Assembly: GCA_015069385.1 (NCBI GenBank)
Contig: SVIS01000005.1
Coordinates: forward strand, 627 to 64,626
Length of the DNA stretch: 64,000 bases
Reading direction: 5' to 3'
Source of the DNA: Clostridiales bacterium
GTDB taxonomy: Bacteria > Bacillota > Clostridia > Christensenellales > UBA1242
Of this stretch, positions 2,345 through 44,687 are shown in pieces. Position numbers and translations under genes: made by a program. Position 1 is the first letter of the stretch; each line of letters opens with the position of its first letter. The notes under the pieces are model-generated. The model worked only from the letters and a program-made list of their open reading frames with translations, searched no databases and was not told where the DNA came from.

Positions 2345-3721
2345 TTAATATTCACAATTGTTTGGTGTTCTAGGGAATGGAAGAACATCACGTATATTTC
2401 CTGCGCCTGTTACATACATAACCAAACGCTCAAAACCAATTCCAAAACCACTATGAATGCAAGAACCATATTTTCTTAAATTCATATACCACCAATAATC
2501 TTGCTCTTTTAAACCGACTTCATTAATACGATTTGCAAGTTTTGTATAGTCTTCTTCTCTTTGACTACCACCACAAAGTTCACCTATTCCAGGCACTACA
2601 AGGTCACATGCACGTACCGTTTTACCATCATCATTTTGTTTCATATAAAATGCTTTAATATCTTTTGGATAGTCAGTAATAAACACAGGGCAGCCAAAAA
2701 CTGTTTCAGCCATATAACGTTCATGCTCGGTTTGAATATCAATACCCCATTCTACCTTATATTGGAAGTTATCGTTATTCTTTTTCATAAGTTCAATGGC
2801 ATCAGTATATGTTATTCTGCCGAATTTTGAATTACGAACATTATTTAATTTTTCGATTAAAGTTTTATCTACAAAATTATTTAATAATTCAAGTTCGTTT
2901 TTGCATGTATCGAAAATGTGATTAATAATAAACTTAATCATTTCTTCTTCTAAATCCATAAGATCATCTAAATCTGCAAAGCAAACTTCTGGCTCTATCA
3001 TCCAAAACTCGTTTGCGTGGCGAGTTGTATTGCTATTTTCTGCCCTAAATGTTGGACCAAAAGTATAGATTTTACCAAATGCTTGAGCAAAACATTCACC
3101 CTCTAATTGTCCGGTAGGGGTTAAATAAACAGGTTTGCCAAAAAGTTCATCTTTAGCATTTAGTTTATCTTTTCCGTAAATTTCTTGTGTAGTCACTCTA
3201 AAAAGTTGACTACCTCCCTCGCAGTCGCTGGCTGTTAAAATTGGAGTATGTGCGTAAACAAAGCCTTTTTCATGGAAAAATTTATGAATAGCAAAAGCAC
3301 ATTCACTTCTTACTCTAAAAATTGCATTAAACATGTTTGTTCTTGGTCTAAGATAAGCAATTTCTCGCAAATATTCTACACTAGCACGCTTTTTTTGAAT
3401 AGGATAGGTTTCATCAGTTGCTTGAAAAACTTGAACCTGCTCGGCTTTAATTTCAAATGGTTGTTTATTTTGTGGTGTTAAAACTAAAGAACCTTTAACA
3501 TAAACAGTGCTACCCATGTTTAGTTTTACAACTTCATCAAAATTATTTAAAACATTTTTTTCTAAAACCACTTGTGCGTTTTTCAAACAAGTTCCATCAT
3601 TTACCTCTAAAAAGCCAAAAACTTTGCTATCACGTGTTGTACGCACCCAGCCTTTAATTAATACCTTTTCGCCATCTGCCACTTTTAAATTATATAACTC
3701 TTTAATATCAGTCTTTTCCAT
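2345..3721 (-). CDS. asnS: Asparagine--tRNA ligase
   Basis: OB fold GWVRT; motif 2 FRAENSNTTRHANEFWMIEPE; GELCGGSQRE; GFGIGFER; PFPR. Confidence 0.97.
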   Translation of the reverse strand: MEKTDIKELYNLKVADGEKVLIKGWVRTTRDSKVFGFLEVNDGTCLKNAQVVLEKNVLNNFDEVVKLNMGSTVYVKGSLVLTPQNKQPFEIKAEQVQVFQATDETYPIQKKRASVEYLREIAYLRPRTNMFNAIFRVRSECAFAIHKFFHEKGFVYAHTPILTASDCEGGSQLFRVTTQEIYGKDKLNAKDELFGKPVYLTPTGQLEGECFAQAFGKIYTFGPTFRAENSNTTRHANEFWMIEPEVCFADLDDLMDLEEEMIKFIINHIFDTCKNELELLNNFVDKTLIEKLNNVRNSKFGRITYTDAIELMKKNNDNFQYKVEWGIDIQTEHERYMAETVFGCPVFITDYPKDIKAFYMKQNDDGKTVRACDLVVPGIGELCGGSQREEDYTKLANRINEVGLKEQDYWWYMNLRKYGSCIHSGFGIGFERLVMYVTGAGNIRDVLPFPRTPNNCEY

Positions 3722-16953: not shown

Positions 16954-19900
16954 TTTGTATCTCCAAAAATTTTTCCGGAATAACATTATATTTTTCAGTT
17001 CTTACAACTTTTTCATTAAAAGCAAACTTACATATCTTATTAAACTCACAAATTTTGCAACGTTGTTCTATTGGCGAACACTCAACATATCCACTTTTAA
17101 TATCACTGATACTCTTTTTTACAAGTTCCTGTGCATAAGAACAATAAGACATTAAAACCTGATACGGCAATATATTTTGTTTTTTTCTAAGTGTTATTTC
17201 ACCATCATTTTTAATTTTTGCTAAAGAAACATTCAAAACTTCCGATTTTCCATTTTGCAAAAGTGTGTTATCAGCAAGCATTGCAAGGCTGGCATTGTTT
17301 TCTAAAAAACCACTAAATTTATATGCAGATTCACCATCTTTATTAAAACCGTTTTTAATAGGTAAATAAAAAGCACCAAATAATTTTTTATTCATATTAC
17401 AAGCCACAGCCTTAGCATATATAAACAATTGAATTTTTGTACCATAGTATAACTGCTCTGCCCCTTTAGAATTACTTGCATTACCAGTTTTATAATCAAT
17501 AATTCTAAAGGAATCCTCGGCAACATCAATTCTATCAACAAAACCAGAAATTTTATATTTTTCGCCCTCAACCTCTATTTCTAGTGGTTTAAAACCAGTT
17601 TCTCCACCAAAATATTTTTCTGCATACTTTGGTTTAAAGAAAGAAATTTTTTGTTCGTAATTTATAAAATTACAAAAACGCAAACCTTCTTTTTTTAATA
17701 ACTTTAATAAGAATTTGTTTTCTTTTAGTAAAAGTGCAAAATATTGCTCATTTTTTAAAATTTGCTCAATTATTTCTTGAACATTTTTTTCTATATATGC
17801 CTCGCTTAAATTACCAAGTTTGTTTAAATTATGTTTAACAAATACTTCACCAACCTCATGAATAAAGGTTCCAATAATATTAGCCTCAATTTTTTCTTTT
17901 TGTTGCTTTTGAAGTTTTAGGGCATTTGCTAAAAATGCGGATTTAGGACAACCATTATATTTTTCTATAATAGAAATAGATGCTTTGCCATCTTTGAAAA
18001 ACAATTTTGAAAAATTTATTTTTAAGTCGGAATAATTAAACAAGTTTATATTTTGTTTAAAAGTAATAGCATTTTTTATAATTGCCCGAAAATTATGTAA
18101 TAAAACATCATTTAGTTGCAGGCTTGCGTTATATTCATCTTGTAGGTTAAAACATAATTTATTTATTAATTTTTGCTCGTTCTCTATTTCATCAACAATT
18201 TTTAAACTTGCGGAAGAAATTTCTTTATTTTCAAATAAATATTTTAATTCCGAAACAAATTCGTTTGGCTGAGCAGGCCTTGAATCACTCGAATAAACAT
18301 GATAACTCAAAAAACACTTTGTTTTTGCAGATAATAAAATTTCAAACAATTTAAATTTATTTCTTTTATTAATAATTTGTGTTGTTGGTTCTAAATTAAC
18401 TTTAATTGTTTCACTGCATATTTCTTTGTCTGATATTAAACCCAAGTCAGATATACAAATTGGCAAAATTCCTTCGTTCATACCTAATATAAAGATATAT
18501 TTTTTATTGCCATAAAAACTTTTAGTGTCACCAATAAAAATCTGGTTTATACCACTTGGCACAGCAGAAATTTCGCACTCGGTTAAAACCTTTTCTAATA
18601 TCTTTAAAAAATCATCATAATTAACATTATTTTTAATGCAATTTTCTATAGCATTTAAACAATCACTTAACTTGTCCTCAATTTGCAAATATGTTTTATG
18701 AAGCAAAATATGACCTTTTTTTTCAAAAAAATCACACTTTTTGACAATTTTTTCTTTAATTTTTGTGTTTTCAATAATATGTTTAAATATATTAATATAT
18801 TGCGAAACATCACTATTTTTTGGTATTTTTATATTTTCTAAAAAATTAAAATAATTAATAGTTTTTTCATCTTCTATTTTTGCATATTTTTTTAAAGATT
18901 CTAATTTACCGTATTTAATTATCAACGTTAGAATTTGCTCTTGTTGTATTTTGTCTAAATCACAAAAATCGTTAGCAAAAATATAATTTAAAATTTTATT
19001 ATCGTTTGTTGCTGCAAATTTAAAAATATTAAATAAATATTTTACTACTTCTAATTCTAATAAATTTATTGTACTATCACAAAAAACATCAATATTTAAA
19101 TTAGACAATTTACTGTTTAAAATTTTATGATATTGCACAGGAGCACACACAGCAATATCATTAAATTTTAAATTATTTGTTTTAAGCAAATAATTTATTT
19201 GTTTAACACAAATTTCAATCTCTTCTGAAAACGAATTAGATTTATATATATTAAAATATTCATTTTCAAAATCATATTTATTTTTCCTAGAAAACAAATT
19301 ATTCAAAATAATATTTTTATTTGTGTTTTCTAAAGGAAAATTATTCCAAACAGTTTCACATTCGATTTGTTCTTGTTTACACATATTTATTATTGAATCT
19401 AAAAAAGTTTGGTCATAAATTCTATAATTATTTTGATTATTTGGTGCAACAACAGCAATTTGTGAGTAGTTTGCATTTTTTGCAATATTTTTTAATAATT
19501 GTAAACCTTGTTTTGTTAAAGAATCAAAACCTACAAAAAAAACATTACAGTTTTTTAAAAATTCAGATTTTATTGCAACCGAATTAAATAAGTTGATTAA
19601 CTCACCACTATCAATTTTTCCGGCCAATAATTTTTGATATTCACAATAAATTAATTTAATATCTTCAAATTTTAATTTAGTTCCTAAAGTTGCATTTTCA
19701 TCTATTAAATCTTCAATTTTTGCATTAGATGATTTTATTTGTTCAATTTTTGCATATATTTCATCTACAAAACCTAAAGTATAATTTTTAGAAAAACACT
19801 TAAAACCTTCTTTAACATTTTGTATTGCATTTAACACAATTAACTTTGACTCAATCGCAGTGCACTCTAAAAATTGCAAATTGTTTTCTTTAATTATTTT

Positions 19901-35411: not shown

Positions 35412-36032
35412 TTACTTAATTTTTGTTTTTAAATATTCTCGTAAACTATTTAGCCTGAGTTCAAATTCAAATCTTGTTAAAACTGTTTCATTAATGTTTT
35501 CATTACCCATATGATGCAATAAATATTTGTTACCGCTAGCAAGCAAAGCGTTTTGATATAAAGGGTTTTTAAGTGCTGAAACATACAATTCATCTAAAAA
35601 CAATTCATATTCTAAACTTTGTCTTTGCATGGGTTTGCCTTGCCAATATAAAATGCCGCAATTTCCCCAAAAGTTATTAAAGTTGGCCGCACGGGTATGA
35701 TATGCATCTAAGCCGCAGTAACCAAGTACCAAATTTTGAGTTTTTTTATCTTTATATTTTACCCCTTGTAAAACTCCCTCAATGCTTGCTACCCATTTGC
35801 CTTTAAATTTAAAACGCATTGGGTATAAATTAGATAGCATTCTTGCCTTGCTATTTTTAAAATTATAACCAATATTTAATATTTTTTCACTCTCGGAGTA
35901 TTTACCTGTTATATCTTCAACAAGCATGTCTTCACAATAAAGTTGTTCGCCCACATTTATTATTTTTTTATACTCAAATTTGTAATTTTTTCTAAAAGCG
36001 GTATATTCTTTTACATTAAATTTCAATCGCAT
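35412..36032 (-). CDS. Phage T4 gp30.3-like NADAR family protein
   Basis: LSNLYP..F.F.G....SIEGVLQGVK...LYWQG...AL.AS....L.H....T.LT..EF pattern, recalled as collinear with T4 gp30.3. Confidence 0.7.
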   Translation of the reverse strand: MRLKFNVKEYTAFRKNYKFEYKKIINVGEQLYCEDMLVEDITGKYSESEKILNIGYNFKNSKARMLSNLYPMRFKFKGKWVASIEGVLQGVKYKDKKTQNLVLGYCGLDAYHTRAANFNNFWGNCGILYWQGKPMQRQSLEYELFLDELYVSALKNPLYQNALLASGNKYLLHHMGNENINETVLTRFEFELRLNSLREYLKTKIK

Positions 36033-36626: not shown

Positions 36627-37892
36627 ATGAAATATAGTAAATACAACATATTAACAAAATCTGGCAATGAATATATTTTATATAATTCTGTAACAAAAGC
36701 CAGTGTTAGTATTGATGAAGATTTTAAAAATAAATTTATAGACTCTAATAATATTGCTGCGTTAAAAAAAGAAGATTACGATTTTTTAGTAGAAAACAAT
36801 TTTATTGTAGCCGACAACAAAGATGAAACAAAAGAACTAGAATATATGTTTAACACTAATTACTTTGCCCATGACCCATTGAACATTGTTTTGGTGCCAA
36901 CACTTAAATGCAACTTTTCCTGCCCTTATTGTTTTGAAAAAGTTGTTTGTGATAAATATGATAATCCAAATTATTTTGAAAATTTAAAAGAGTACGCCAA
37001 AGCACAATTTCATCATCACTCTGTTGTACAAATAAGTTTGTTTGGCGGTGAGCCTTTAGTGTATGAAAAACAAGCACTAGAGTTTTTAGAGTTTGCAAAG
37101 CAAGATTCACTTAAGCATGGCTACGACTTAAAAGTAAGCATGGTAACAAATGGCTCGCTACTTACCGACCATAATGTTAAAAAACTTTTAGAGTATGGGT
37201 TATTTTCGCTTCAGGTAACCTTTGATGGCGGAAAAGAATCACACAATAAAACCCGTTGTTTTAAAGATGGCAGGCCTTCGTTTGACTTGCTTGTTGAAAA
37301 AGTTAAAATGGTAATTAAATATATTAAAAATGTTCCAGACTTTTTGCTTAACATCAGAATTAATTTAAACAATAATTCTAAGTCTGATTTAGAAGAAGTG
37401 TTAAATTGCTTTACAGTGGAAGAACGCTCATATATGCGCCTTTTAATTAGGGTAATATATAATACAGATAAATATAAAGGTGAAAATAACAACTCGTTAG
37501 ATGACTTAAAAACATACTATGATGTTGCGCTTTCTATGGGTGCAAATTTAGTTAAAAATTCATACTTTTATCAAACTTGCGAGGGTTGTGCGGACGCACG
37601 TTTCTTCTATTTAATGCCAGATATGACAATGTGGAAATGTATTAACGACCTTAATTTTAAAGAGGCAATCATCGGGCAAATTCAACCAGATGGCAGTGTG
37701 CAGATTAATTATAACAATATTGTTAATTGGTATAGTGCGGCTAATTGTTTTAAAGATGAAAAATGTTTGGAGTGCAAAAAATTGCCAGATTGTTTTGGTG
37801 GTTGTGTACTTCATAAACGCAAAAAGGGCAATCGCTCTTGCAAAACTTTTGATATGGCTTGCTTGCCATACTGCATGGGTAAAAACGAATGA
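36627..37892 (+). CDS. Radical SAM/SPASM peptide maturase 1
   Basis: CNFSCPYC, FGGEP, VTNG, SPASM CEGC...CLECKKLPDCFGGC; RRE-like N-terminus. Confidence 0.92.
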   Translation: MKYSKYNILTKSGNEYILYNSVTKASVSIDEDFKNKFIDSNNIAALKKEDYDFLVENNFIVADNKDETKELEYMFNTNYFAHDPLNIVLVPTLKCNFSCPYCFEKVVCDKYDNPNYFENLKEYAKAQFHHHSVVQISLFGGEPLVYEKQALEFLEFAKQDSLKHGYDLKVSMVTNGSLLTDHNVKKLLEYGLFSLQVTFDGGKESHNKTRCFKDGRPSFDLLVEKVKMVIKYIKNVPDFLLNIRINLNNNSKSDLEEVLNCFTVEERSYMRLLIRVIYNTDKYKGENNNSLDDLKTYYDVALSMGANLVKNSYFYQTCEGCADARFFYLMPDMTMWKCINDLNFKEAIIGQIQPDGSVQINYNNIVNWYSAANCFKDEKCLECKKLPDCFGGCVLHKRKKGNRSCKTFDMACLPYCMGKNE

Positions 37893-39145
37893 GAACTTCT
37901 AACTATAACCTAGTTAAAAAAATTAAAAATAAAGGGTATTTGGTTTTTAATACCCTTTTTCAAAGTTTGGTTTTTGTGAGCAAAGCCGATTACTCTGATT
38001 TTGTTAATTGTAATCAAAATAACATTAATTATGAGACATGGAAAAGCGAGCATTTAATTACAAATTTAAATGATGAATATAAGCAGACATATACAAAAAT
38101 GTATGGCAATGAAAACGACAAGCAAATTTTAACAATTTATACAACTACTGCCTGCAATGCCCGTTGTGCTTATTGTTTTGAAAAAGGTATAACTCCAATT
38201 ACTATAAAAAAAGAAGATTGTAAAAAACTTGCAAAATCAATAATAGGCAACATAAATGCAAAATGGTTACATATAACTTGGTTTGGTGGCGAACCACTAA
38301 TAAATACATATGCCATAGAAGAAATTACAAAATTAGTAAAAGAGCATTGTGAAAAAAATAATATAAAATATACAGCATCTATAATTACAAATGGCAGTTT
38401 AATAACAAAAGAAATTGCCAATAAAATGCAAAACGAATGGGAGTTTAAAGCCGTTCAAATAACACTAGATGGTTTAGAGAAAACTTATAATAAAATTAAA
38501 GGCTATGCCGATGGCAGCAACTTTAATAAAGTAATAAATAACATAAAAATATTAACAAAAATAGGTCAAAAAGTTACAATAAGAGTAAATTTTGATAAAA
38601 ATAACCTAAAAAATGCGTTAAAACTTGTTAGATTTTTAAACAAACAACAATTAACCTCTGACAAAATAAATATTTATTTTGCTCCAATTACAACAACCAA
38701 AGGTAATGACAAAACTAAAAAAGAATTAAATAAACAATATAATAAAATATTTAATAAATTAATAAAATATGGTTATTTAAAAAATTTAAATTATTTTCAT
38801 TTTCATTTAGCACGATATCATTGCCAAGCCGAACAACCAAATTGTTTTTGTTTATTTCCAAATGGAAAAACTTCTAAATGCCAACGTGAAAAACCAGAGC
38901 ACAGCAAAATATCAATTTATGATGACAACTTTTTACAAAAACTAAACTTACAATGGAACACAAACTGCAAAAATAAAAACTTTGATGAATGTAAAACTTG
39001 CAAAAGCCTTCCACATTGCCAAGGCGGTTGCAAAATAAAAAACTATGAATATTTAACAAAAAACCATTGCGATGTTTGCTATATGTACAAAGATGCTATG
39101 CCAGCCATTTTAAATGCGCTTGCAAAAATATATTTAAATGCTTAA
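37889..39145 (+). CDS. Radical SAM/SPASM peptide maturase 2
   Basis: CNARCAYC, FGGEP, ITNG, SPASM CKTCKSLPHCQGGC; ATGA overlap with maturase 1. Confidence 0.92.
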   Translation: MRTSNYNLVKKIKNKGYLVFNTLFQSLVFVSKADYSDFVNCNQNNINYETWKSEHLITNLNDEYKQTYTKMYGNENDKQILTIYTTTACNARCAYCFEKGITPITIKKEDCKKLAKSIIGNINAKWLHITWFGGEPLINTYAIEEITKLVKEHCEKNNIKYTASIITNGSLITKEIANKMQNEWEFKAVQITLDGLEKTYNKIKGYADGSNFNKVINNIKILTKIGQKVTIRVNFDKNNLKNALKLVRFLNKQQLTSDKINIYFAPITTTKGNDKTKKELNKQYNKIFNKLIKYGYLKNLNYFHFHLARYHCQAEQPNCFCLFPNGKTSKCQREKPEHSKISIYDDNFLQKLNLQWNTNCKNKNFDECKTCKSLPHCQGGCKIKNYEYLTKNHCDVCYMYKDAMPAILNALAKIYLNA

Positions 39146-40207
39146 ATTTTCAAAATATTTTTTATTATGTAAATATGCAGCGCTTTTATAATATTTACCG
39201 GCAAGGTTATTAAACTTTGCCGCTTTTTTATTATCCCCCAATAAAGAAGTTATATAACAAAGTTGCATATAAGGATAATAGTTATAATATATTGGTTCAA
39301 CAAAAGCCCCAGTGTGTGAAATGTCTTTACATTTAGTCGCACTATTATACCAATAGCATGCATTTTTATATTGTTTTTGTTGCAAAAAATAATCGCCTAA
39401 ATAACAACAAACATTTGCTCGTGGTAAATCGTATAAAAATGTTTTTGTTAAACACTCATGTTGTTTTAATGGTTTGTTTAAAATTACATAACATTTATAT
39501 AAAATTACATAACTTTCAATAATATTTTCTACCCAACCCTTGCCTTCTTTTATAAACCTATTTAAAACTTGTATACACTTTGTATATTTTTTATGGTCAA
39601 ATAGTTCACGAGCAAAATAGTATTGCTCTCTTGGGTTCAATATTCTTTCTTTTGCCAAGTTTTGATATATTTTTAAATTACGATTAGAGTCACTAGTTTT
39701 AATTTTTCTATGCTCTATTGAAATATCAATATTTTCTACTTTGCCAAAAGGGGTTATACACTCGTGCACTACGCCTTGCCAAATGCACTTATCACAATTT
39801 TTTATTATTCTTTCACGAAAATAACTAAAGGTTGATTTATTGTCACAAAAAGCAATGTCGTATTTTAACATATAAACATCTGCCGTTAAATTTGTCTTTA
39901 ACCCCATTAGTTTGTTTAAACTCTTTTTAGGAACAATATCATCGGCATCTAGCCACATAACATAAGAACAAGTTGACTTAGAAAAAGCAAAGTTTCGTGC
40001 CTTGGAAAAATCATTACACCATACAAAATCATATATTTTATTGGTGTATTTTTTGGCAATTTGCTTTGTGTTGTCAGTCGAGCCAGTGTCTACAATAATA
40101 ATTTCATCAACAAAACTTTTAACCGACTTTAAACATCGCTCTAAAACCTCTTCTTCATTTTTTACAATCATACATAAACTTACACTTACCATTTTTTCTC
40201 CAATCAT
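39134..40207 (-). CDS. GT2 glycosyltransferase with TPR domain
   Basis: SLCMIVKNEE, VDTGSTD, DFSKARN, WLDADD, VHE; TPR-like C-terminus. Confidence 0.92.
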   Translation of the reverse strand: MIGEKMVSVSLCMIVKNEEEVLERCLKSVKSFVDEIIIVDTGSTDNTKQIAKKYTNKIYDFVWCNDFSKARNFAFSKSTCSYVMWLDADDIVPKKSLNKLMGLKTNLTADVYMLKYDIAFCDNKSTFSYFRERIIKNCDKCIWQGVVHECITPFGKVENIDISIEHRKIKTSDSNRNLKIYQNLAKERILNPREQYYFARELFDHKKYTKCIQVLNRFIKEGKGWVENIIESYVILYKCYVILNKPLKQHECLTKTFLYDLPRANVCCYLGDYFLQQKQYKNACYWYNSATKCKDISHTGAFVEPIYYNYYPYMQLCYITSLLGDNKKAAKFNNLAGKYYKSAAYLHNKKYFENLSI

Positions 40208-40221
40208 TTAATACCAACAAT

Positions 40222-40249
40222 ATCATATGCTAAAAGGCATTCAGGGGTT
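40222..40249 (-). promoter_or_regulatory. Putative sigmaK promoter of GT2 gene
   Basis: AACC-N16-CATATGAT on the minus strand. Confidence 0.55.
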
Positions 40250-40312
40250 AAAAATACCAAAACTTCATATGAAATTCATATAAATATTTTAAAGTTTTTT
40301 TTAGAAAAAGTA

Positions 40313-40341
40313 TTGACAAAAAGGTTTATATATCATACTAT
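40313..40341 (+). promoter_or_regulatory. SigmaA promoter driving ncRNA pair
   Basis: TTGACA-N17-TACTAT; predicted +1 near 40348 coincides with the first base of RNA1. Confidence 0.8.
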
Positions 40342-40347
40342 ATTAAT

Positions 40348-40410
40348 GCCGAAGCGTAGAAAGTGGATACTTCGTCTGTCAAACAAAATGCCATTTTCGT
40401 TTTTCTCGGC
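40348..40410 (+). ncRNA. Putative Ro60-associated (Y-like) RNA 1
   Basis: Terminal stem GCCGA/TCGGC, inner stem GAAAGTGG/CCATTTTC, motifs AGCGTA, TACTTCGTC, TTTTCTC shared with RNA2. Confidence 0.65.
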
Positions 40411-40424
40411 AGTTTTAAAAATAA

Positions 40425-40524
40425 TTTTGAGGCAGCATAAAGAACAGTTACTTCGTCAAAGGTTTATGAATGTGTGGCAAGAAGTTCTTCTTGTCACTAA
40501 CTGTGCTTGATTTTCTCCTCAAAA
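40425..40524 (+). ncRNA. Putative Ro60-associated (Y-like) RNA 2
   Basis: Terminal stem TTTTGAGG/CCTCAAAA, inner stem ACAGTTA/TAACTGT, hairpin GTGGCAAGAA/TTCTTGTCAC, motifs AGCATA, TACTTCGTC, TTTTCTC. Confidence 0.65.
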
Positions 40525-40531
40525 ACCAAAA

Positions 40532-40567
40532 AAACTGCCCCTGAAATTTTTTAGGGGCAGTTTCTTA
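40532..40567 (+). terminator. Intrinsic terminator closing the ncRNA unit
   Basis: AAACTGCCCCT-loop-AGGGGCAGTTT followed by CTT. Confidence 0.8.
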
Positions 40568-40645
40568 TTAAAAATAACAATGTCAATTTTGTAATTATAA
40601 TAATTATATTATTGCTTAATTAATGTAAATTAGGAGGATAAACTT

Positions 40646-42301
40646 ATGTCAATATTTTCTAAAAAAGTAAGAGAAGCCGCTTTAGACAAAAAAAATAAAA
40701 AAGTCACTAATTTTATGGGTGGTAATTCTTATGAACTTTCACCAATAGAAACTTTAAAAATGGTTACAGCAAGTTCTATTTTTGGTGAACCTCAGTATTA
40801 TCGTGATGGCGAGTTTGCACCTAAAACAATGCCAGATGGAATATATAAAGTTCATGAACTTTTTAAAGACTACTCAATTTTATCTGATTCATTTGAAGGT
40901 AAAACCACAACCGAAATTATGGAAACCGTAATAGACAACGCCTTAGATTATGACTTTGGTGAAGTTTTGTCATGGGCTGTTGAGTTAAGACGTGACTATT
41001 TTATGCGATTAAACCCACAAGTAATTATGGTAAGAGCCGCTATGCATGCAAAAAAGGACGAGTTTATTAAAGAAAATCCTGGTGTTTTTGATAATATTAA
41101 TCAACTTGTTATGATGCGTGCCGATGAGCCAAATACTCAATTTACTTATTTTTTATATAAAAATAAATCTCATAAAAATATGCCAAATCTTTTAAAACGT
41201 GGTTGGGCTAAAAAAATTGCCGGGCTAACACCTTATACTTTTAATAAATATAAAAACGCTGGTCTTGGCATGAAAGATATAATTTGTGTTTGCCACCCAA
41301 AAAGTGCAGTTGTTGATGAATTTATGAAAACCGGCAAGGTAACAGTTGAAAAAGAGGATTTAACGTGGGAAGTTTTAAAATCTGATGGTAAAACATGGAA
41401 AGAAATTTTATCTTTAATAAAACTTAACCATATGGCACTGCTTAGAAATTTAAGAGGAATTTTTACAGAAATAGAAGATATTAAACTTTGTAAAGATCTT
41501 TTAACCGAGTTAAAAGATAGCGTTTTAACTGGAATGCAATTCCCTTTTAGATATTGGTCAGCACTAAAAGCTGTTAAAGCCGATGAAAACGTGCATCACA
41601 AAGGCATAATTATTGATGCCTTAGAAGAGTGCATTGAAATATCTTGCGATAATTTGCCAAAATTAAAAGGCAGAACTATGTGCTTGTCAGATAACTCAGG
41701 TAGCGCTTGGGGTCATTTTACAAGTGAGTTTGGCAGTGTTACAGTTGCGGAAATTGACAACTTAAGCGCTGCAATAATTGGTAAAAACTCTGACGAGGGC
41801 TATATTGGTAAATTTGGTGATAAATTAATTGAATATCCAGTTTCTAAAAAGAATGGAGTTTTGCTTCAAACTGAAATTTTAACTGGTACCAAATATTCTG
41901 ATGTTGGCGGAAACACTGAAAATGGCATTTGGCTTTTCTTTGATAAAGCAATTTCTAAAAAAGAGCACTGGGACAATATTTTTGTGTTCAGTGATATGCA
42001 GGCTGGTCATGGCGGTTTATATGGAATTGACCCAAATGAATATGCTAATTATATAACTAGAGATAGATTTATTGATGTAAATAAATTGGTGCAAGAGTAC
42101 AGAAATAAAGTCAATCCAAAAGTTAATGTTTTTATGGTTCAAACTGCGGGATATCCTAATGTTTTAGTACCAGAATACGGATATAGAAATAATATTTTAT
42201 ATGGCTGGACCGGTAAAGAATTACTATTTGCCGATGCTATGATTAAATTCTGGAATGAAAAAGATGAGGGCAAAAAGGAAAATGTGCCATGCTATCGTTA
42301 A
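40646..42301 (+). CDS. TROVE domain protein (Ro60/Rsr homolog) with C-terminal vWA
   Basis: N-terminal NFMGG.SY; MALLRNLR; PFRY; MIDAS DNSGS; FSDMQ; YGW. Confidence 0.9.
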   Translation: MSIFSKKVREAALDKKNKKVTNFMGGNSYELSPIETLKMVTASSIFGEPQYYRDGEFAPKTMPDGIYKVHELFKDYSILSDSFEGKTTTEIMETVIDNALDYDFGEVLSWAVELRRDYFMRLNPQVIMVRAAMHAKKDEFIKENPGVFDNINQLVMMRADEPNTQFTYFLYKNKSHKNMPNLLKRGWAKKIAGLTPYTFNKYKNAGLGMKDIICVCHPKSAVVDEFMKTGKVTVEKEDLTWEVLKSDGKTWKEILSLIKLNHMALLRNLRGIFTEIEDIKLCKDLLTELKDSVLTGMQFPFRYWSALKAVKADENVHHKGIIIDALEECIEISCDNLPKLKGRTMCLSDNSGSAWGHFTSEFGSVTVAEIDNLSAAIIGKNSDEGYIGKFGDKLIEYPVSKKNGVLLQTEILTGTKYSDVGGNTENGIWLFFDKAISKKEHWDNIFVFSDMQAGHGGLYGIDPNEYANYITRDRFIDVNKLVQEYRNKVNPKVNVFMVQTAGYPNVLVPEYGYRNNILYGWTGKELLFADAMIKFWNEKDEGKKENVPCYR

Positions 42302-42468
42302 TGCAACGAGCAAGGCTCGCGCAAAAGAAAAAAGATTTAAAACTCTCATCAAAACAACTCTCAGAATTGCTTGGAATTAAATATGGAACATTAACTATGG
42401 TACTTTGCGGTAGTTACTCTAATGCCGAGGTAGAAAAAATATTATTGAACTGGCTAAAATCTAAATAA
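42289..42468 (+). CDS. Small XRE/Cro-like HTH protein (not in ORF track)
   Basis: MLSLMQRARLAQKKKDLKLSSKQLSELLGIKYGTLTMVLCGSYSNAEVEKILLNWLKSK; overlaps the TROVE stop; AAGGA RBS. Confidence 0.7.
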   Translation: MLSLMQRARLAQKKKDLKLSSKQLSELLGIKYGTLTMVLCGSYSNAEVEKILLNWLKSK

Positions 42469-42514
42469 ACTAAAAAACTTGAACATAAACGTTCAAGTTT
42501 TTTAATTGTTTTAA

Positions 42515-43369
42515 TTATTTTATTTGTTCTTCTTGCACTTGCGCCACCTCAGCCGTTGCTGCTGTAGGCATAGCCCCTTTGATTTGCGTTGGTGGAAGAG
42601 TTGTTTGTTTGCCTTTAATATATTTTGTCCATTTAATATAACCGTAGGTGGTATTAGTTAGGTAACCTGCTTTTAAAACAAGCAATATCCATTGGCCAGC
42701 CATAATATTTAAAACTATTTCCAAGAATGTAACCAAATACCAACATATCCATTGTTCACGATATCTTAATAAAATAAATACACCGTTTGCAATTCCTATT
42801 GCACTTGCACAGGCATCTAAATAACCACCTAAATCTTGAATTACTTCGTTATATGACAATATACCTTCGTATTCAATAAGAGAAAGTAAATATCCAACCA
42901 CAACAGTCCATACAGCAATACCCAAAATTAAAATTAAATCTTGCCACCAAGTTAGTTTGCGAACTTCGGTAATATTTTCTTCTTTTTTATCTTTGTGTTT
43001 TTGCCAAGCAAAAAAACTAATAATATCGATTGGAATCCAGAAGAAAATTGTAACTGCCATTGTGGCAAAACGATATGCACATACAATGCAAATTGCAATT
43101 TCAGTAAGTTCAACAATTAAAGATACAATAAAATTCCACTTACTTTGTTTAGAAATTAACAATTCACACAAAATATTGGAAAGTATATCTACAAGATACA
43201 ATATCATTATTATTGTGCCATTAACACCGCCAACATCTTCCTCTGGGAATACAAATGCAAATACAACAGCAAGCACTGCAATACTAATAAACCATAATTT
43301 TTCGTAAGTAGAAAAATAATTCCATAATTTTTTAATTTTATTTTCTTTTTTATCTTTTGCTAAATCCAT
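42515..43369 (-). CDS. pnuC: PnuC nicotinamide riboside transporter
   Basis: Multi-TM; WNF, YLDA, RYREQWICW, YGYIKW. Confidence 0.85.
   Translation of the reverse strand: MDLAKDKKENKIKKLWNYFSTYEKLWFISIAVLAVVFAFVFPEEDVGGVNGTIIMILYLVDILSNILCELLISKQSKWNFIVSLIVELTEIAICIVCAYRFATMAVTIFFWIPIDIISFFAWQKHKDKKEENITEVRKLTWWQDLILILGIAVWTVVVGYLLSLIEYEGILSYNEVIQDLGGYLDACASAIGIANGVFILLRYREQWICWYLVTFLEIVLNIMAGQWILLVLKAGYLTNTTYGYIKWTKYIKGKQTTLPPTQIKGAMPTAATAEVAQVQEEQIK

Positions 43370-43495: not shown

Positions 43496-44687
<1,192 letters not shown>

What the first reader, a model, noticed from the sequence alone, without database searches (positions are those of the whole stretch)
40313..42468. Dedicated promoter-to-terminator unit of two homologous structured RNAs beside a Ro60/TROVE gene: candidate new Y-RNA class
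Seen: a sigmaA promoter (TTGACA-N17-TACTAT) puts +1 near 40348, the first base of RNA1 (63 nt). RNA2 (about 100 nt) follows, then a GC-rich terminator (40532-40567), then the TROVE gene. Both RNAs have the same layout: 5'/3' closing stem, internal loop with AGC(G/A)TA opposite TTTTCTC, second stem, then TACTTCGTC opening a variable module. The stem sequences differ between copies but both pair, which suggests structural conservation. RNA1's variable part contains CU-GUC-AA closed by GU/AC, loosely like an anticodon loop; RNA2 carries an extra 10-bp hairpin. Known: bacterial Ro60 (Rsr) binds Y RNAs encoded near its gene, and YrlA RNAs mimic tRNA. These two lack the canonical GGUCCGA/UUGACC Ro-binding helix and a clear T-arm. 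Inference: a non-canonical Y-like RNA family with a constant Ro-binding scaffold and swappable effector loops.
Basis: partly seen in the sequence, partly recalled or inferred. Interest (0 to 1): 0.88.

Follow-up and report, generated by a model that had tools for sequence, protein, structure and literature searches.

The report
Two minimal Y RNAs beside Ro60
Two small structured RNAs just upstream of a Ro60-type gene are real, stripped-down relatives of the known bacterial and phage Y RNAs (YrlA type), so they extend a known family and are not a new class.

Summary
Window 40347-40411 (RNA1) and 40425-40524 (RNA2) share one scaffold: closing stem P1, internal loop AGCRUA / UUUUC, second stem P2, then UACUUCGU. 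A sigma-70-like promoter precedes them, a strong hairpin follows, then a 551-aa ORF.

A covariance model built only from 21 RNAs upstream of orthologous genes in other genomes finds RNA1 (35 bits, E 7.7e-7) and RNA2 (18.4 bits, E 0.017) as the two best hits in the 64-kb window. Both stems covary strongly in bacterial and in independent viral sets.

Full-length relatives on the same scaffold carry T and D arms and align to Rfam YrlA below threshold (up to 49.6 bits), scaffold included. RNA1 carries the published bacterial Y-RNA motif GNCGAAG. The predicted protein fold matches Ro60 structures. The closest solved one, from Thermus phage phiLo, has two hairpin Y-like RNAs upstream, shown in print to bind it. 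Bacillus phage G gp540 (54% identical) has five such RNAs.

So these are new, reduced members of the known kind. They lack the tRNA-like module and Rfam misses them. No test of expression or Ro60 binding was possible.

The parts
40313..40341 (+). sigma-70-like promoter, TTGACA-N17-TACTAT; predicted +1 at about 40347-40349, the first bases of P1
   Evidence: 10 of 12 matches. Similar sites lie 5-27 nt upstream of the first RNA in 8 of 15 loci. No transcript data.
40347..40411 (+). RNA1, a minimal Y RNA (65 nt): P1 40347-52/40406-11; GNCGAAG 40348-54; loop AGCGUA 40353-58; P2 40359-66/40391-98; UAC 40368-70; weak anticodon-arm-like hairpin UUCGU-CUGUCAA-ACAAA 40371-87 (4 of 5 pairs); 3' loop GUUUUUC 40399-405
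   Evidence: Model R1, built without window sequences: 40343-40415, 35 bits, E 7.7e-7 in the window, 1.4e-5 in the 1.2-Mb genome, 5.3e-9 in the intergenic stretch. Fold. Homologues listed.
40412..40424 (+). 13-nt A/U-rich spacer with no terminator, so the two RNAs are probably made as one precursor
   Evidence: Sequence and fold. Precedent: M. smegmatis YrlA and YrlB are processed from one precursor (PMC4201824).
40425..40524 (+). RNA2, a Y-like RNA (100 nt): P1 40425-32/40517-24; loop AGCAUA 40434-39; P2 40440-48/40500-08 (8 of 9 pairs); UAC 40449-51; hairpin UUCGU-9 nt-AUGAA 40452-70; 10-bp hairpin 40474-97; 3' loop GAUUUUC 40509-15. It lacks the CGAA motif.
   Evidence: R1: 40424-40525, 18.4 bits, E 0.017 in the window and 1.2e-4 in the intergenic stretch. 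Fold. Same two-hairpin layout as L004, L016, L008, L014 and L010.
40532..40569 (+). intrinsic-terminator-like hairpin (14 bp, GC core CUGCCCC/GGGGCAG) with a U-rich tail and an A-tract upstream, so possibly bidirectional
   Evidence: z -5.8 and -5.3. Not listed by the rule-based scan. Weak Rfam hits here (MCS4, 34.2 bits against a cut-off of 56, minus strand) only reflect this hairpin.
40646..42301 (+). Ro60 (Rsr/TROVE) orthologue, 551 aa: HEAT-repeat ring plus a C-terminal vWA domain with DxSxS (D349, S351, S353)
   Evidence: Pfam TROVE scores 17.9 bits, under the 23-bit cut-off. All 17 of 17 orthologues hit TROVE at E<=0.01, best 6.4e-9. AF2 pLDDT 77.9, pTM 0.79. The Foldseek top 12 are all Ro60: phiLo 9kop E 9.5e-17, Rsr 2nvo, Xenopus 1yvp, human 9nen. 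Invariant residues.
42289..42468 (+). 59-aa ORF overlapping the Ro60 stop codon, with an HTH-looking segment; not a conserved partner
   Evidence: No Pfam or NCBIfam hit. No counterpart downstream of the orthologues.
42471..42504 (.). bidirectional terminator shared with the convergent PnuC-like gene (42515-43369, minus strand)
   Evidence: 14-18 pairs, both strands. PnuC identified.

Best explanation
The locus is a Ro60 ribonucleoprotein cassette: a Ro60 gene preceded by two Y RNA genes of the YrlA lineage that have lost the tRNA-like (T/D/acceptor) module.

Inferred mechanism:
- A sigma-70-type promoter starts transcription at the first base of RNA1's closing stem.
- RNA1 and RNA2 are made as one roughly 220-nt precursor that ends at the hairpin at 40532-40569, and may be separated afterwards.
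- Each RNA folds into P1, a conserved internal loop (AGCRN opposite UUAUUC/UUUUUC) and P2. This is the module that, in characterised Y RNAs, binds the outer surface of the Ro60 ring through its 5' strand.
- The distal part then presents a short hairpin (RNA1) or two hairpins (RNA2) to a second partner. The most likely partner is the host's PNPase. The RNA would gate or tether Ro60 as in the RYPER complexes of D. radiodurans and phage phiLo.

Shown here: the family relationship, the covarying structure, the linkage and common strand with Ro60, the Ro60 fold, and the presence of PNPase in the genome.

Inferred only: transcription, processing, Ro60 binding and the PNPase link.

The cassette is probably horizontally acquired and ultimately phage-derived.
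For: (1) Independent model. R1 was built from 21 RNAs of 14 other genomes. It hits RNA1 at 35 bits (E 7.7e-7) and RNA2 at 18.4 bits (E 0.017). These are the two best of 3 matches at E<=10 in 64 kb on both strands.

(2) Linkage. R1 matches lie upstream of the orthologous gene, on its strand, in 14 of 18 genome loci. The 4 without a match hold only 47-894 nt of upstream sequence. In viral contigs all 174 matches at E<=0.01 are on the gene's strand.

(3) Covariation.
- MAFFT alignment A2: 86.5% of cells paired, 15 of 16 pairs with compensatory changes, 0 of 500 shuffles as high, slid controls 40-46%.
- Model-fitted A4 (27 RNAs, window included): 94.4% paired, 16 of 16 pairs.
- Viral set A5, not used for building (114 distinct of 150): 92.8% paired, 16 of 16 pairs, slid controls 32-48%.

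(4) Link to YrlA. Rfam RF02553 aligns globally to L012:2724-2849 (49.6 bits, E 2.7e-8). It gives 36-45 bits on four RNAs in L003 and 33.8 bits on L009. It gives 36.2 bits on the tRNA-like RNA of Bacillus phage G, which R1 also hits.

(5) Published motifs (PMC4201824). GNCGAAN0-1G is present in RNA1. The YUAY motif is present as UUAC in RNA2 (AUAC in RNA1). The paper's location rule, within 4 kb of rsr and on the same strand, is met.

(6) The protein is Ro60 by fold.

(7) Precedent. phiLo Ro60, the closest solved relative, has two hairpin Y-like RNAs directly upstream. Both bind it and host PNPase in EMSA (PMC12135203, abstract and passages).

(8) The genome encodes PNPase.
Against: - No expression data: no RNA run was listed for this stretch.
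- Neither RNA gives any YrlA, Y_RNA or tRNA hit in Rfam even at E<=10. ARAGORN finds nothing there.
- RNA2 lacks CGAA, has a C/U mismatch at the inner end of P1 and an A/G mismatch in P2, and scores only 18.4 bits.
- The window's Ro60 is below Pfam's TROVE cut-off. By sequence profile it reaches only the phage Ro60 structure, not cellular Ro60.
- No tRNA-like Y RNA was found anywhere in the 98%-complete genome. The YrlA-model hits there are tRNA clusters. [quoted passage not shown]
- The alignments A4 and A5 are fitted to the model, which inflates the paired fractions.
- The promoter rests on a consensus match only.
Confidence: 0.85

Rival explanations
1. The elements act in cis as a structured leader of the Ro60 mRNA, not as free RNAs. 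An example would be an autoregulatory Ro60-binding site combined with a read-through terminator.
For: The RNAs sit 121 nt upstream of the ORF on the same strand. In L012 and L013 the last RNA ends only 22 and 33 nt before the start codon with no terminator, so co-transcription is likely there.
Against: In L001, L004, L014 and L016 the RNA lies 581-2246 nt upstream with other genes in between. In many viral loci the arrays lie downstream of the gene. There are up to 6 tandem copies (L003). A strong hairpin separates the RNAs from the ORF in the window. Characterised homologues are free RNAs (PMC4201824, PMC12135203).
Confidence: 0.07
2. They are decaying, non-functional remnants of phage-type YrlA genes that arrived with a horizontally acquired Ro60 gene.
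For: RNA1 looks like a deletion derivative. Its UACUUCGUCUGUCAA matches the start of L009's full tRNA-like RNA, but the 3' half of that arm is degraded (ACAAA where L009 has ACGAG) and the T, acceptor and D arms are gone. RNA2 has lost CGAA. The gene is sporadic: 0 of 10 same-genus genomes have an orthologue, and 1 of 40 relatives has a 28%-identical TROVE gene.
Against: The Ro60 ORF is intact at 551 aa. P1 and P2 of RNA1 are fully paired (6 and 8 bp). The conserved unpaired motifs are kept in both copies although the stem sequences differ. Small forms without a T arm are the majority in the family: 17 of 27 and 68 of 114. That fits a functional class better than decay.
Confidence: 0.06
3. The similarity is chance: A/U-rich hairpins in an intergenic region.
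For: Single-sequence folding z-scores are modest, -1.85 and -2.19. Promoter-like sites are not enriched.
Against: The model E-values, the linkage to Ro60 on one strand in dozens of loci and the covariation.
Confidence: 0.01

Closest known systems
YrlA bacterial Y RNAs (Rfam RF02553; Chen et al. 2014, PMC4201824; Wang et al. 2018, bioRxiv 10.1101/312249)
   Same: Encoded next to Ro60/rsr on the same strand. The 5' and 3' ends pair. The scaffold runs stem, internal loop, stem, YUAY. RNA1 has GNCGAAG. Full-length relatives on the same scaffold carry T, acceptor-like and D arms and align to the Rfam model.
   Different: The window RNAs have no T, D or acceptor-like arms and give no Rfam hit. The loop sequences differ from the Rfam consensus: AGCRG, UACUUC and UUAUUC here against AUGCu, CUAc and AcUuG there. 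Even the best relatives stay under the 69-bit cut-off.
Yrl1/Yrl2 with Ro60 of Thermus phage phiLo (PMC12135203; PDB 9KOP, 9L5Y)
   Same: Two short hairpin-type Y-like RNAs lie directly upstream of the Ro60 gene. A CGAA motif sits in the stem-bulge-stem. The protein is the closest solved relative of the window's Ro60. The host supplies PNPase.
   Different: Protein identity is only about 19% in the structural alignment. I did not hold the phiLo RNA sequences, so homology of the RNAs themselves was not tested. RNA2 lacks CGAA.
Bacillus phage G gp540 locus (NC_023719.1)
   Same: gp540 is 54% identical over 99% of the protein. Five R1-family RNAs lie upstream on the same strand. One has a YrlA-type tRNA-like module and four are small ones of 78-107 nt.
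   Different: It is a 498-kb phage, not a 1.2-Mb bacterial chromosome. It retains a tRNA-like member. None of these RNAs is annotated in the record.
Hairpin-type bacterial Y RNAs: YrlB (Salmonella, M. smegmatis) and Yrn2 (D. radiodurans)
   Same: They are second Y RNAs in the same locus, without a full tRNA-like domain. They can be co-transcribed with the first (PMC4201824).
   Different: Those species also keep a tRNA-like Y RNA. Here none was found in the genome. Sequence homology to YrlB or Yrn2 was not tested, because no sequences were held.
Metazoan Y RNAs (Rfam RF00019)
   Same: Modular design, with a Ro60-binding terminal stem and variable distal loops. Relatives L006, L009 and L011 even carry GUCCGA, which is 6 of the 7 bases of GGUCCGA quoted in PMC4201824.
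   Different: No bulged-C helix: P1 is fully complementary. No RF00019 hit. Bacterial-type promoter and terminator.

Membership tests
Bacterial Y RNA (criteria of Chen et al. 2014) | Encoded within about 4 kb of the Ro60 orthologue, on the same strand | tested here: met
   The RNAs end 121 nt upstream of the ORF, plus strand.
Bacterial Y RNA (criteria of Chen et al. 2014) | GNCGAAN0-1G motif near the 5' end | tested here: inconclusive
   RNA1 has GCCGAAG at 40348-40354, so it meets the criterion. RNA2 has GAGGCAG and does not. In the wider family this position also reads CGUAG, UGUAG, UAUAG or UGAUG.
Bacterial Y RNA (criteria of Chen et al. 2014) | 5' and 3' termini pair into a long stem that holds the Ro60 site | tested here: met
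   P1 and P2 in both RNAs. Covariation.
Bacterial Y RNA (criteria of Chen et al. 2014) | Bound by Ro60/Rsr in vivo or in vitro | not testable with these tools
   Needs RIP or EMSA. The complex predictor offered takes proteins only, so it was not used.
YrlA subfamily / Rfam RF02553 | tRNA-like domain (T arm, acceptor-like stem, D arm) and a score of at least 69 bits | tested here: not met
   No RF02553 or tRNA hit at E<=10 in 40200-40700. ARAGORN finds none. No T- or D-arm motif. Relatives reach 33.8-49.6 bits only.
Scaffold family R1 (defined here) | P1, AGCRN loop, P2, UAC(A/U)UC ... (U/A)UUC loop, P1', matched by the covariance model | tested here: met
   RNA1 scores 35 bits and RNA2 18.4 bits with a model that excludes them.
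Metazoan Y RNA (RF00019) | Bulged helix GGUCCGA / UUGACC | tested here: not met
   No such helix in the sequence. No Rfam hit.
Ro60 / TROVE protein | Pfam TROVE (PF05731) at its curated cut-off | tested here: not met
   17.9 bits against 23 for the window protein. All 17 of 17 orthologues match at E<=0.01, best 6.4e-9.
Ro60 / TROVE protein | HEAT-repeat ring plus a C-terminal vWA domain with a MIDAS motif (the Ro60 fold) | tested here: met
   AF2 pTM 0.79. The Foldseek top 12 are all Ro60, over 477-609 aligned columns, TM 0.50-0.72. D349, S351 and S353 are invariant. The DxSxS definition of MIDAS is recalled.

The most novel reading that the evidence does not exclude
The window RNAs may be the minimal end of a large, mostly phage-borne Y-RNA family that Rfam misses. 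More than 170 copies were seen here, in arrays of up to 6 or more beside Ro60 on contigs of 100-500 kb.

The full members look like more complete tRNA mimics than Salmonella YrlA. Of 52 distinct RNAs with a perfect T arm, 21 also carry a perfect 5-bp stem with a 7-nt loop just 5' of it, mostly of the form CU-NNN-AA and often followed by AGGUC. A shifted control gives 3 of 52. The middle triplets differ from copy to copy.

That reads like a circularly permuted whole tRNA with the Ro60-binding stem inserted between the D and anticodon arms. It would fit the proposed dimeric-tRNA origin of YrlA quoted in bioRxiv 10.1101/312249. RNA1's CUGUCAA would then be a relic anticodon loop.

A speculative function: Ro60-tethered decoys or sensors for anticodon-directed nucleases or for tRNA-modifying enzymes during phage-host conflict.
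Probability: 0.2. Interest if true: 0.75.

Novelty: new member of a known kind. Interest (0 to 1): 0.45.

Why it matters
- It gives a reduced 1.2-Mb bacterium an unannotated Ro60 RNP: one protein gene and two RNA genes that standard tools (Rfam, Pfam at its cut-offs) do not call.
- The YrlA scaffold can exist without any tRNA-like module, and this is the commoner form in this clade: 17 of 27 RNAs and 68 of 114. That bears on which part of a Y RNA is needed for Ro60 function, and on the published generalisation that every Ro60-bearing species keeps a tRNA-like Y RNA.
- The covariance model made here could be used to annotate these RNAs in rumen and gut bacteria and in large phages, including the cultivable Bacillus phage G. 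There the five predicted RNAs can be tested directly.

Tried and rejected
- **Rfam, gathering thresholds.** On the window and on 12 loci only tRNAs were found.
- **Rfam, E-value mode, 40200-40700.** There were 19 weak hits. The best was MCS4 on the minus strand (34.2 bits against a cut-off of 56). All centre on the terminator hairpin or A/U-rich sequence, so I rejected them as noise.
- **ORF 40313-40510 (65 aa, TTG start).** It overlaps both RNAs. I did not pursue it, because covarying stems explain the conservation.
- **NCBIfam on the Ro60 and the 59-aa ORF.** Nothing found.
- **Sequence profile of 17 orthologues against PDB.** It reaches only the phage phiLo Ro60, not cellular Ro60. The fold search was needed to make that link.
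- **A conserved third helix (P3) right after UAC.** A hairpin was found in 67 of 140 RNAs against 49.9 expected from shuffles. I do not claim it as a family-wide feature. Only the subset next to T arms is enriched.
- **The 59-aa downstream ORF as a conserved partner.** Rejected: no counterpart in 17 loci.
- **Is the window itself a phage contig?** AddA/AddB, RecD2 and MetRS point to a bacterial chromosome. A gp30.3-like ORF and a collagen-repeat ORF lie nearby.
- **R1 on the distant TROVE locus of a same-genus genome (L025).** No match at E<=1.
- **RtcB in the own genome.** Not found (genome 98% complete).
- **Sequencing runs.** No RNA holder was listed.
- **Complex prediction.** Not used, because it takes protein partners only.
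- **Literature.** Searches listed no paper describing Y-RNA arrays in large phages or this scaffold motif. The review PMC10870794 is not held. Supplements are closed and I did not request them. Supplemental Tables S1 and S2 of Chen et al. 2014, which list the species and phages with YrlA, may already include Bacillus phage G or relatives of this clade. PMC12135203 says Y-like RNAs were reported for phage G.
Full report
**What is in the sequence**

Between a divergent glycosyltransferase gene (39134-40207, minus strand; Pfam Glycos_transf_2) and a 551-aa ORF (40646-42301, plus strand) lies a 438-nt intergenic stretch. It contains:
- a sigma-70-like promoter, TTGACA-N17-TACTAT at 40313-40341 (10 of 12 matches);
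- two hairpin-closed RNAs;
- a strong GC-cored hairpin with a U-rich tail at about 40532-40569.

RNA1 (40347-40411) and RNA2 (40425-40524) share one layout. A closing stem P1 is followed by an internal loop, AGCGUA or AGCAUA on the 5' side and GUUUUUC or GAUUUUC on the 3' side. Then comes a second stem P2, then UACUUCGU opening a variable part. The stem sequences differ between the copies, but both pair. TACTTCGTC occurs exactly twice in the window, once in each RNA. Folding z-scores of the single RNAs are modest, -1.85 and -2.19. Promoter-like sites are not enriched locally. So the sequence alone would not settle the matter.

**Comparative test**

The 551-aa protein has 18 relatives of 53-63% identity in one-genome-per-species contigs. 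They come from rumen and gut Clostridia, a spirochaete, a Synergistaceae member and an Anaeroplasmataceae member. Reading their upstream regions showed the same scaffold again and again, for example GUCCGAAGCGG-stem-UUACUUCG ... stem-GUUAUUCUCGGAC.

I aligned 21 of these RNAs, none from the window. I wrote the two-helix structure by hand and counted pairs:
- 86.5% of cells were paired;
- 15 of 16 pairs had compensatory changes;
- 0 of 500 shuffles reached the observed covariation;
- partners slid by 1-3 columns gave only 40-46% paired.

The covariance model R1 built from this alignment was then run on the window. Its two best matches on both strands of 64 kb are RNA1 (40343-40415, 35 bits, E 7.7e-7) and RNA2 (40424-40525, 18.4 bits, E 0.017). 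The third match is a 12.6-bit local match to unpaired positions at 19508-19541, which I take as noise. On the intergenic stretch alone, with filters off, the E-values are 5.3e-9 and 1.2e-4. In the whole 1.2-Mb genome R1 finds only this locus.

In the 18 loci R1 gives 25 plus-strand matches in 14 loci. These include four RNAs not used in training, at 23.8-43.6 bits. There is also one weak minus-strand match inside an ORF (E 0.24). The four loci without a match hold only 47-894 nt upstream of the gene.

**What family it is**

Rfam at gathering thresholds calls nothing here or in the related loci except tRNAs. In E-value mode the longer relatives match YrlA (RF02553) below its 69-bit cut-off:
- L012:2724-2849 at 49.6 bits, E 2.7e-8, aligned over model positions 1-114;
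- four RNAs in L003 at 36-45 bits;
- L009:239-302 at 33.8 bits.

In the L012 alignment the scaffold itself lies on the YrlA model's first stem, loop, second stem and CUAc. Its T, acceptor-like and D arms lie on the model's tRNA-like core. The scaffold of the window RNAs is therefore the YrlA Ro60-binding module.

Chen et al. 2014 (PMC4201824; I read Results and Discussion) give four relevant points:
- the short motif GNCGAAN0-1G near the 5' end is the likely Rsr contact;
- a conserved YUAY lies after the stem;
- the RNAs lie within 4 kb of rsr on its strand;
- there are two or more Y RNAs per species, sometimes processed from one precursor.

RNA1 carries GCCGAAG (40348-40354), and RNA2 carries UUAC where RNA1 has AUAC. 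RNA2 has GAGGCAG in place of the CGAA motif. Across the family that position is variable anyway (CGUAG, UGUAG, UAUAG, UGAUG). The invariant parts are GC in the 5' loop, UAC/UC after P2 and UUC before P1'.

**The protein**

Pfam TROVE scores 17.9 bits for the window protein, under the 23-bit cut-off. All 17 aligned orthologues match TROVE at E<=0.01. By sequence, only the Ro60 of Thermus phage phiLo is reached in the PDB.

An AlphaFold2 model made with the 17-sequence alignment has pLDDT 77.9 and pTM 0.79. Its 12 best Foldseek matches are all Ro60: phiLo 9kop and 9l5y, human 9nen, 9nep and 9nfa, Xenopus 1yvp, 1yvr and 2i91, and D. radiodurans Rsr 2nvo (E 1e-16 to 2e-10, TM 0.50-0.72). vWA domains follow. 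D349, S351 and S353 are invariant, as in a MIDAS DxSxS motif; that definition is recalled.

**Published precedent**

The phiLo paper (PMC12135203; abstract and 12 passages read) reports two Y RNA-like genes directly upstream of the phage Ro60 gene. They are one- and two-hairpin RNAs with a CGAA motif in a stem-bulge-stem. Both bind the protein and host PNPase in EMSA. The paper also notes earlier reports of Y-like RNAs in mycobacteriophages, CcrColossus and Bacillus phage G.

Phage G gp540 is the closest named relative of the window protein, 54% identical over 99% of it. Upstream of it R1 finds five RNAs. One of 162 nt has a tRNA-like core that matches YrlA (36.2 bits). Four tandem small ones are 78-107 nt. 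None is annotated.

**Wider family**

IMG/VR holds 52 loci with relatives of 36-62% identity, many on contigs of 100-500 kb. R1 gives 174 matches at E<=0.01 there, all on the gene's strand. They fall in at least 45 loci, counted on the best 150, with up to 6 per locus in that subset, either upstream or just downstream of the gene.

This set was not used to build the model. It shows 92.8% paired cells, 16 of 16 pairs with compensatory changes, and slid controls of 32-48%. The alignment is model-fitted, which favours the structure.

The viral consensus is GA-(A/U)GC(A/G)G ... GU-UACUUC ... UUAUUC-UC. This matches the window RNAs' UACUUC and GA/UC better than the UACAUC type of most MAG loci does.

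By simple motif tests, 17 of 27 RNAs and 68 of 114 have neither a T arm nor a D arm. Ten of 15 bacterial-contig loci, the window included, have no T-arm RNA at all. The reduced form is thus common, not an oddity of this genome.

**The variable parts**

RNA1's UACUUCGUCUGUCAA is nearly identical to the start of L009's full tRNA-like RNA (UACUUCGUCUGUCAC-ACGAG-AGGCC, then a T arm). It also resembles several viral ones (UUCGN-CUG(U/A)(U/C)AA-NCGAG-AGGUC), whose closing pair covaries as U-A, G-C and C-G.

Among 52 distinct RNAs with a perfect T arm, 21 have a perfect 5-bp/7-nt-loop arm 3-6 nt upstream. A shifted control gives 3 of 52. The loops are mostly CU-NNN-AA. In RNA1 the arm keeps 4 of 5 pairs, and everything from the T arm to the D arm is missing.

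RNA2 has the two-hairpin distal part also seen in L004, L008, L010, L014 and L016. A hairpin right after UAC is not a family-wide feature: 67 of 140 against 49.9 expected.

**Context**

The genome is 1.2 Mb in 31 contigs and 98% complete.
- The window carries AddAB, RecD2 and MetRS, so it is chromosomal.
- An orthologue was not found in 10 same-genus or 30 more distant relatives. One same-genus genome has a 28%-identical TROVE gene with no R1 match next to it.
- GC content of the cassette (0.31-0.35) is close to that of its flanks.
- Sporadic presence, about 60% identity to genes in four phyla, and the abundance in large phages point to horizontal acquisition.
- The genome has PNPase. RtcB was not found.
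- The YrlA-model hits elsewhere in the genome are tRNA clusters.

**Mechanism, with status**

Shown:
- homology to the YrlA-type scaffold;
- covarying P1 and P2;
- strand-specific linkage to Ro60;
- the Ro60 fold;
- PNPase in the genome.

Inferred:
- transcription from the promoter as one precursor ending at the hairpin;
- Ro60 binding through the P1/loop 5' strand;
- tethering or gating with PNPase through the distal hairpins.

Rivals are a cis-acting leader, decaying remnants and chance. They are weighed in their own section. The first two cannot be fully excluded without RNA data.

**Verdict**

These are new, reduced members of the known bacterial and phage Y-RNA kind, invisible to Rfam, and they sit at the minimal end of a large, modular and mostly phage-associated family.

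Noticed in passing
L027-L078 (IMG/VR loci), e.g. L033:4663-5534, L032:4723-5628, L027:4670-5177: Tandem arrays of Y-like RNAs of this family sit beside the Ro60 gene on viral contigs of 100-500 kb, with up to 6 per locus among the 150 best hits. There are 174 matches at E<=0.01, all on the gene's strand, often immediately downstream of the ORF.
   Followed up: partly
L079 (Bacillus phage G NC_023719.1) 1277-1438, 2754-2842, 2954-3043, 3061-3167, 3185-3262: Five unannotated R1-family RNAs lie upstream of gp540. The region 2441-3500 carries no annotated feature, and tRNA genes and a tmRNA lie nearby.
   Followed up: partly
A4/A5 members, e.g. L067:4810-4946, L073:5027-5162, L032:4985-5148, L006:2741-2871: Many T-arm-bearing members carry a canonical-looking anticodon arm (5 bp, loop CU-NNN-AA) followed by AGGUC just 5' of the T arm: 21 of 52 against 3 of 52 in a shifted control. 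The middle triplets vary (CAU, GUC, GAU, GUU, UUU, GCU and others).
   Followed up: partly
L004:2535-2987; similar ORFs in L002, L007, L014, L016: A small HD-domain protein (Pfam HD_4, E 7.6e-7, about 142-150 aa) is encoded between the Y RNA and the Ro60 gene in several loci. It is absent from the window.
   Followed up: partly
L006:2871-2960 and L011:2786-2870: A further conserved hairpin element (CCGUUUCUGACAUCAGRAGCGGUUC...) lies between the Y RNA and the terminator in two loci. It may be another small RNA.
   Followed up: no
window 42289-42468: A 59-aa ORF overlaps the Ro60 stop codon. It has an HTH-looking segment and no family hit, and it is not conserved in other loci.
   Followed up: partly
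window 35412-36032 (-) and 43496-44176 (+): A phage gp30.3-like ORF (PF08010, E 6.9e-31) and a collagen-triple-helix-repeat ORF lie close to the cassette. The second sits in a GC spike of 0.60 against about 0.30. These may be remnants of mobile or phage DNA.
   Followed up: no
window 36627-39145: Two adjacent radical-SAM / 4Fe-4S genes (421 and 418 aa) lie upstream of the glycosyltransferase.
   Followed up: no
L018:282-1972: The Ro60 homologue in this locus appears interrupted. The reading frame from the first start gives only 74 aa, although tblastn covers residues 1-540.
   Followed up: no
L001:1451-1523: A tRNA gene lies between the two Y RNAs (998-1305) and the Ro60 gene (3001) in this locus. 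This recalls the Yrn2-tRNA-Yrn1 precursor of D. radiodurans described in PMC4201824.
   Followed up: no
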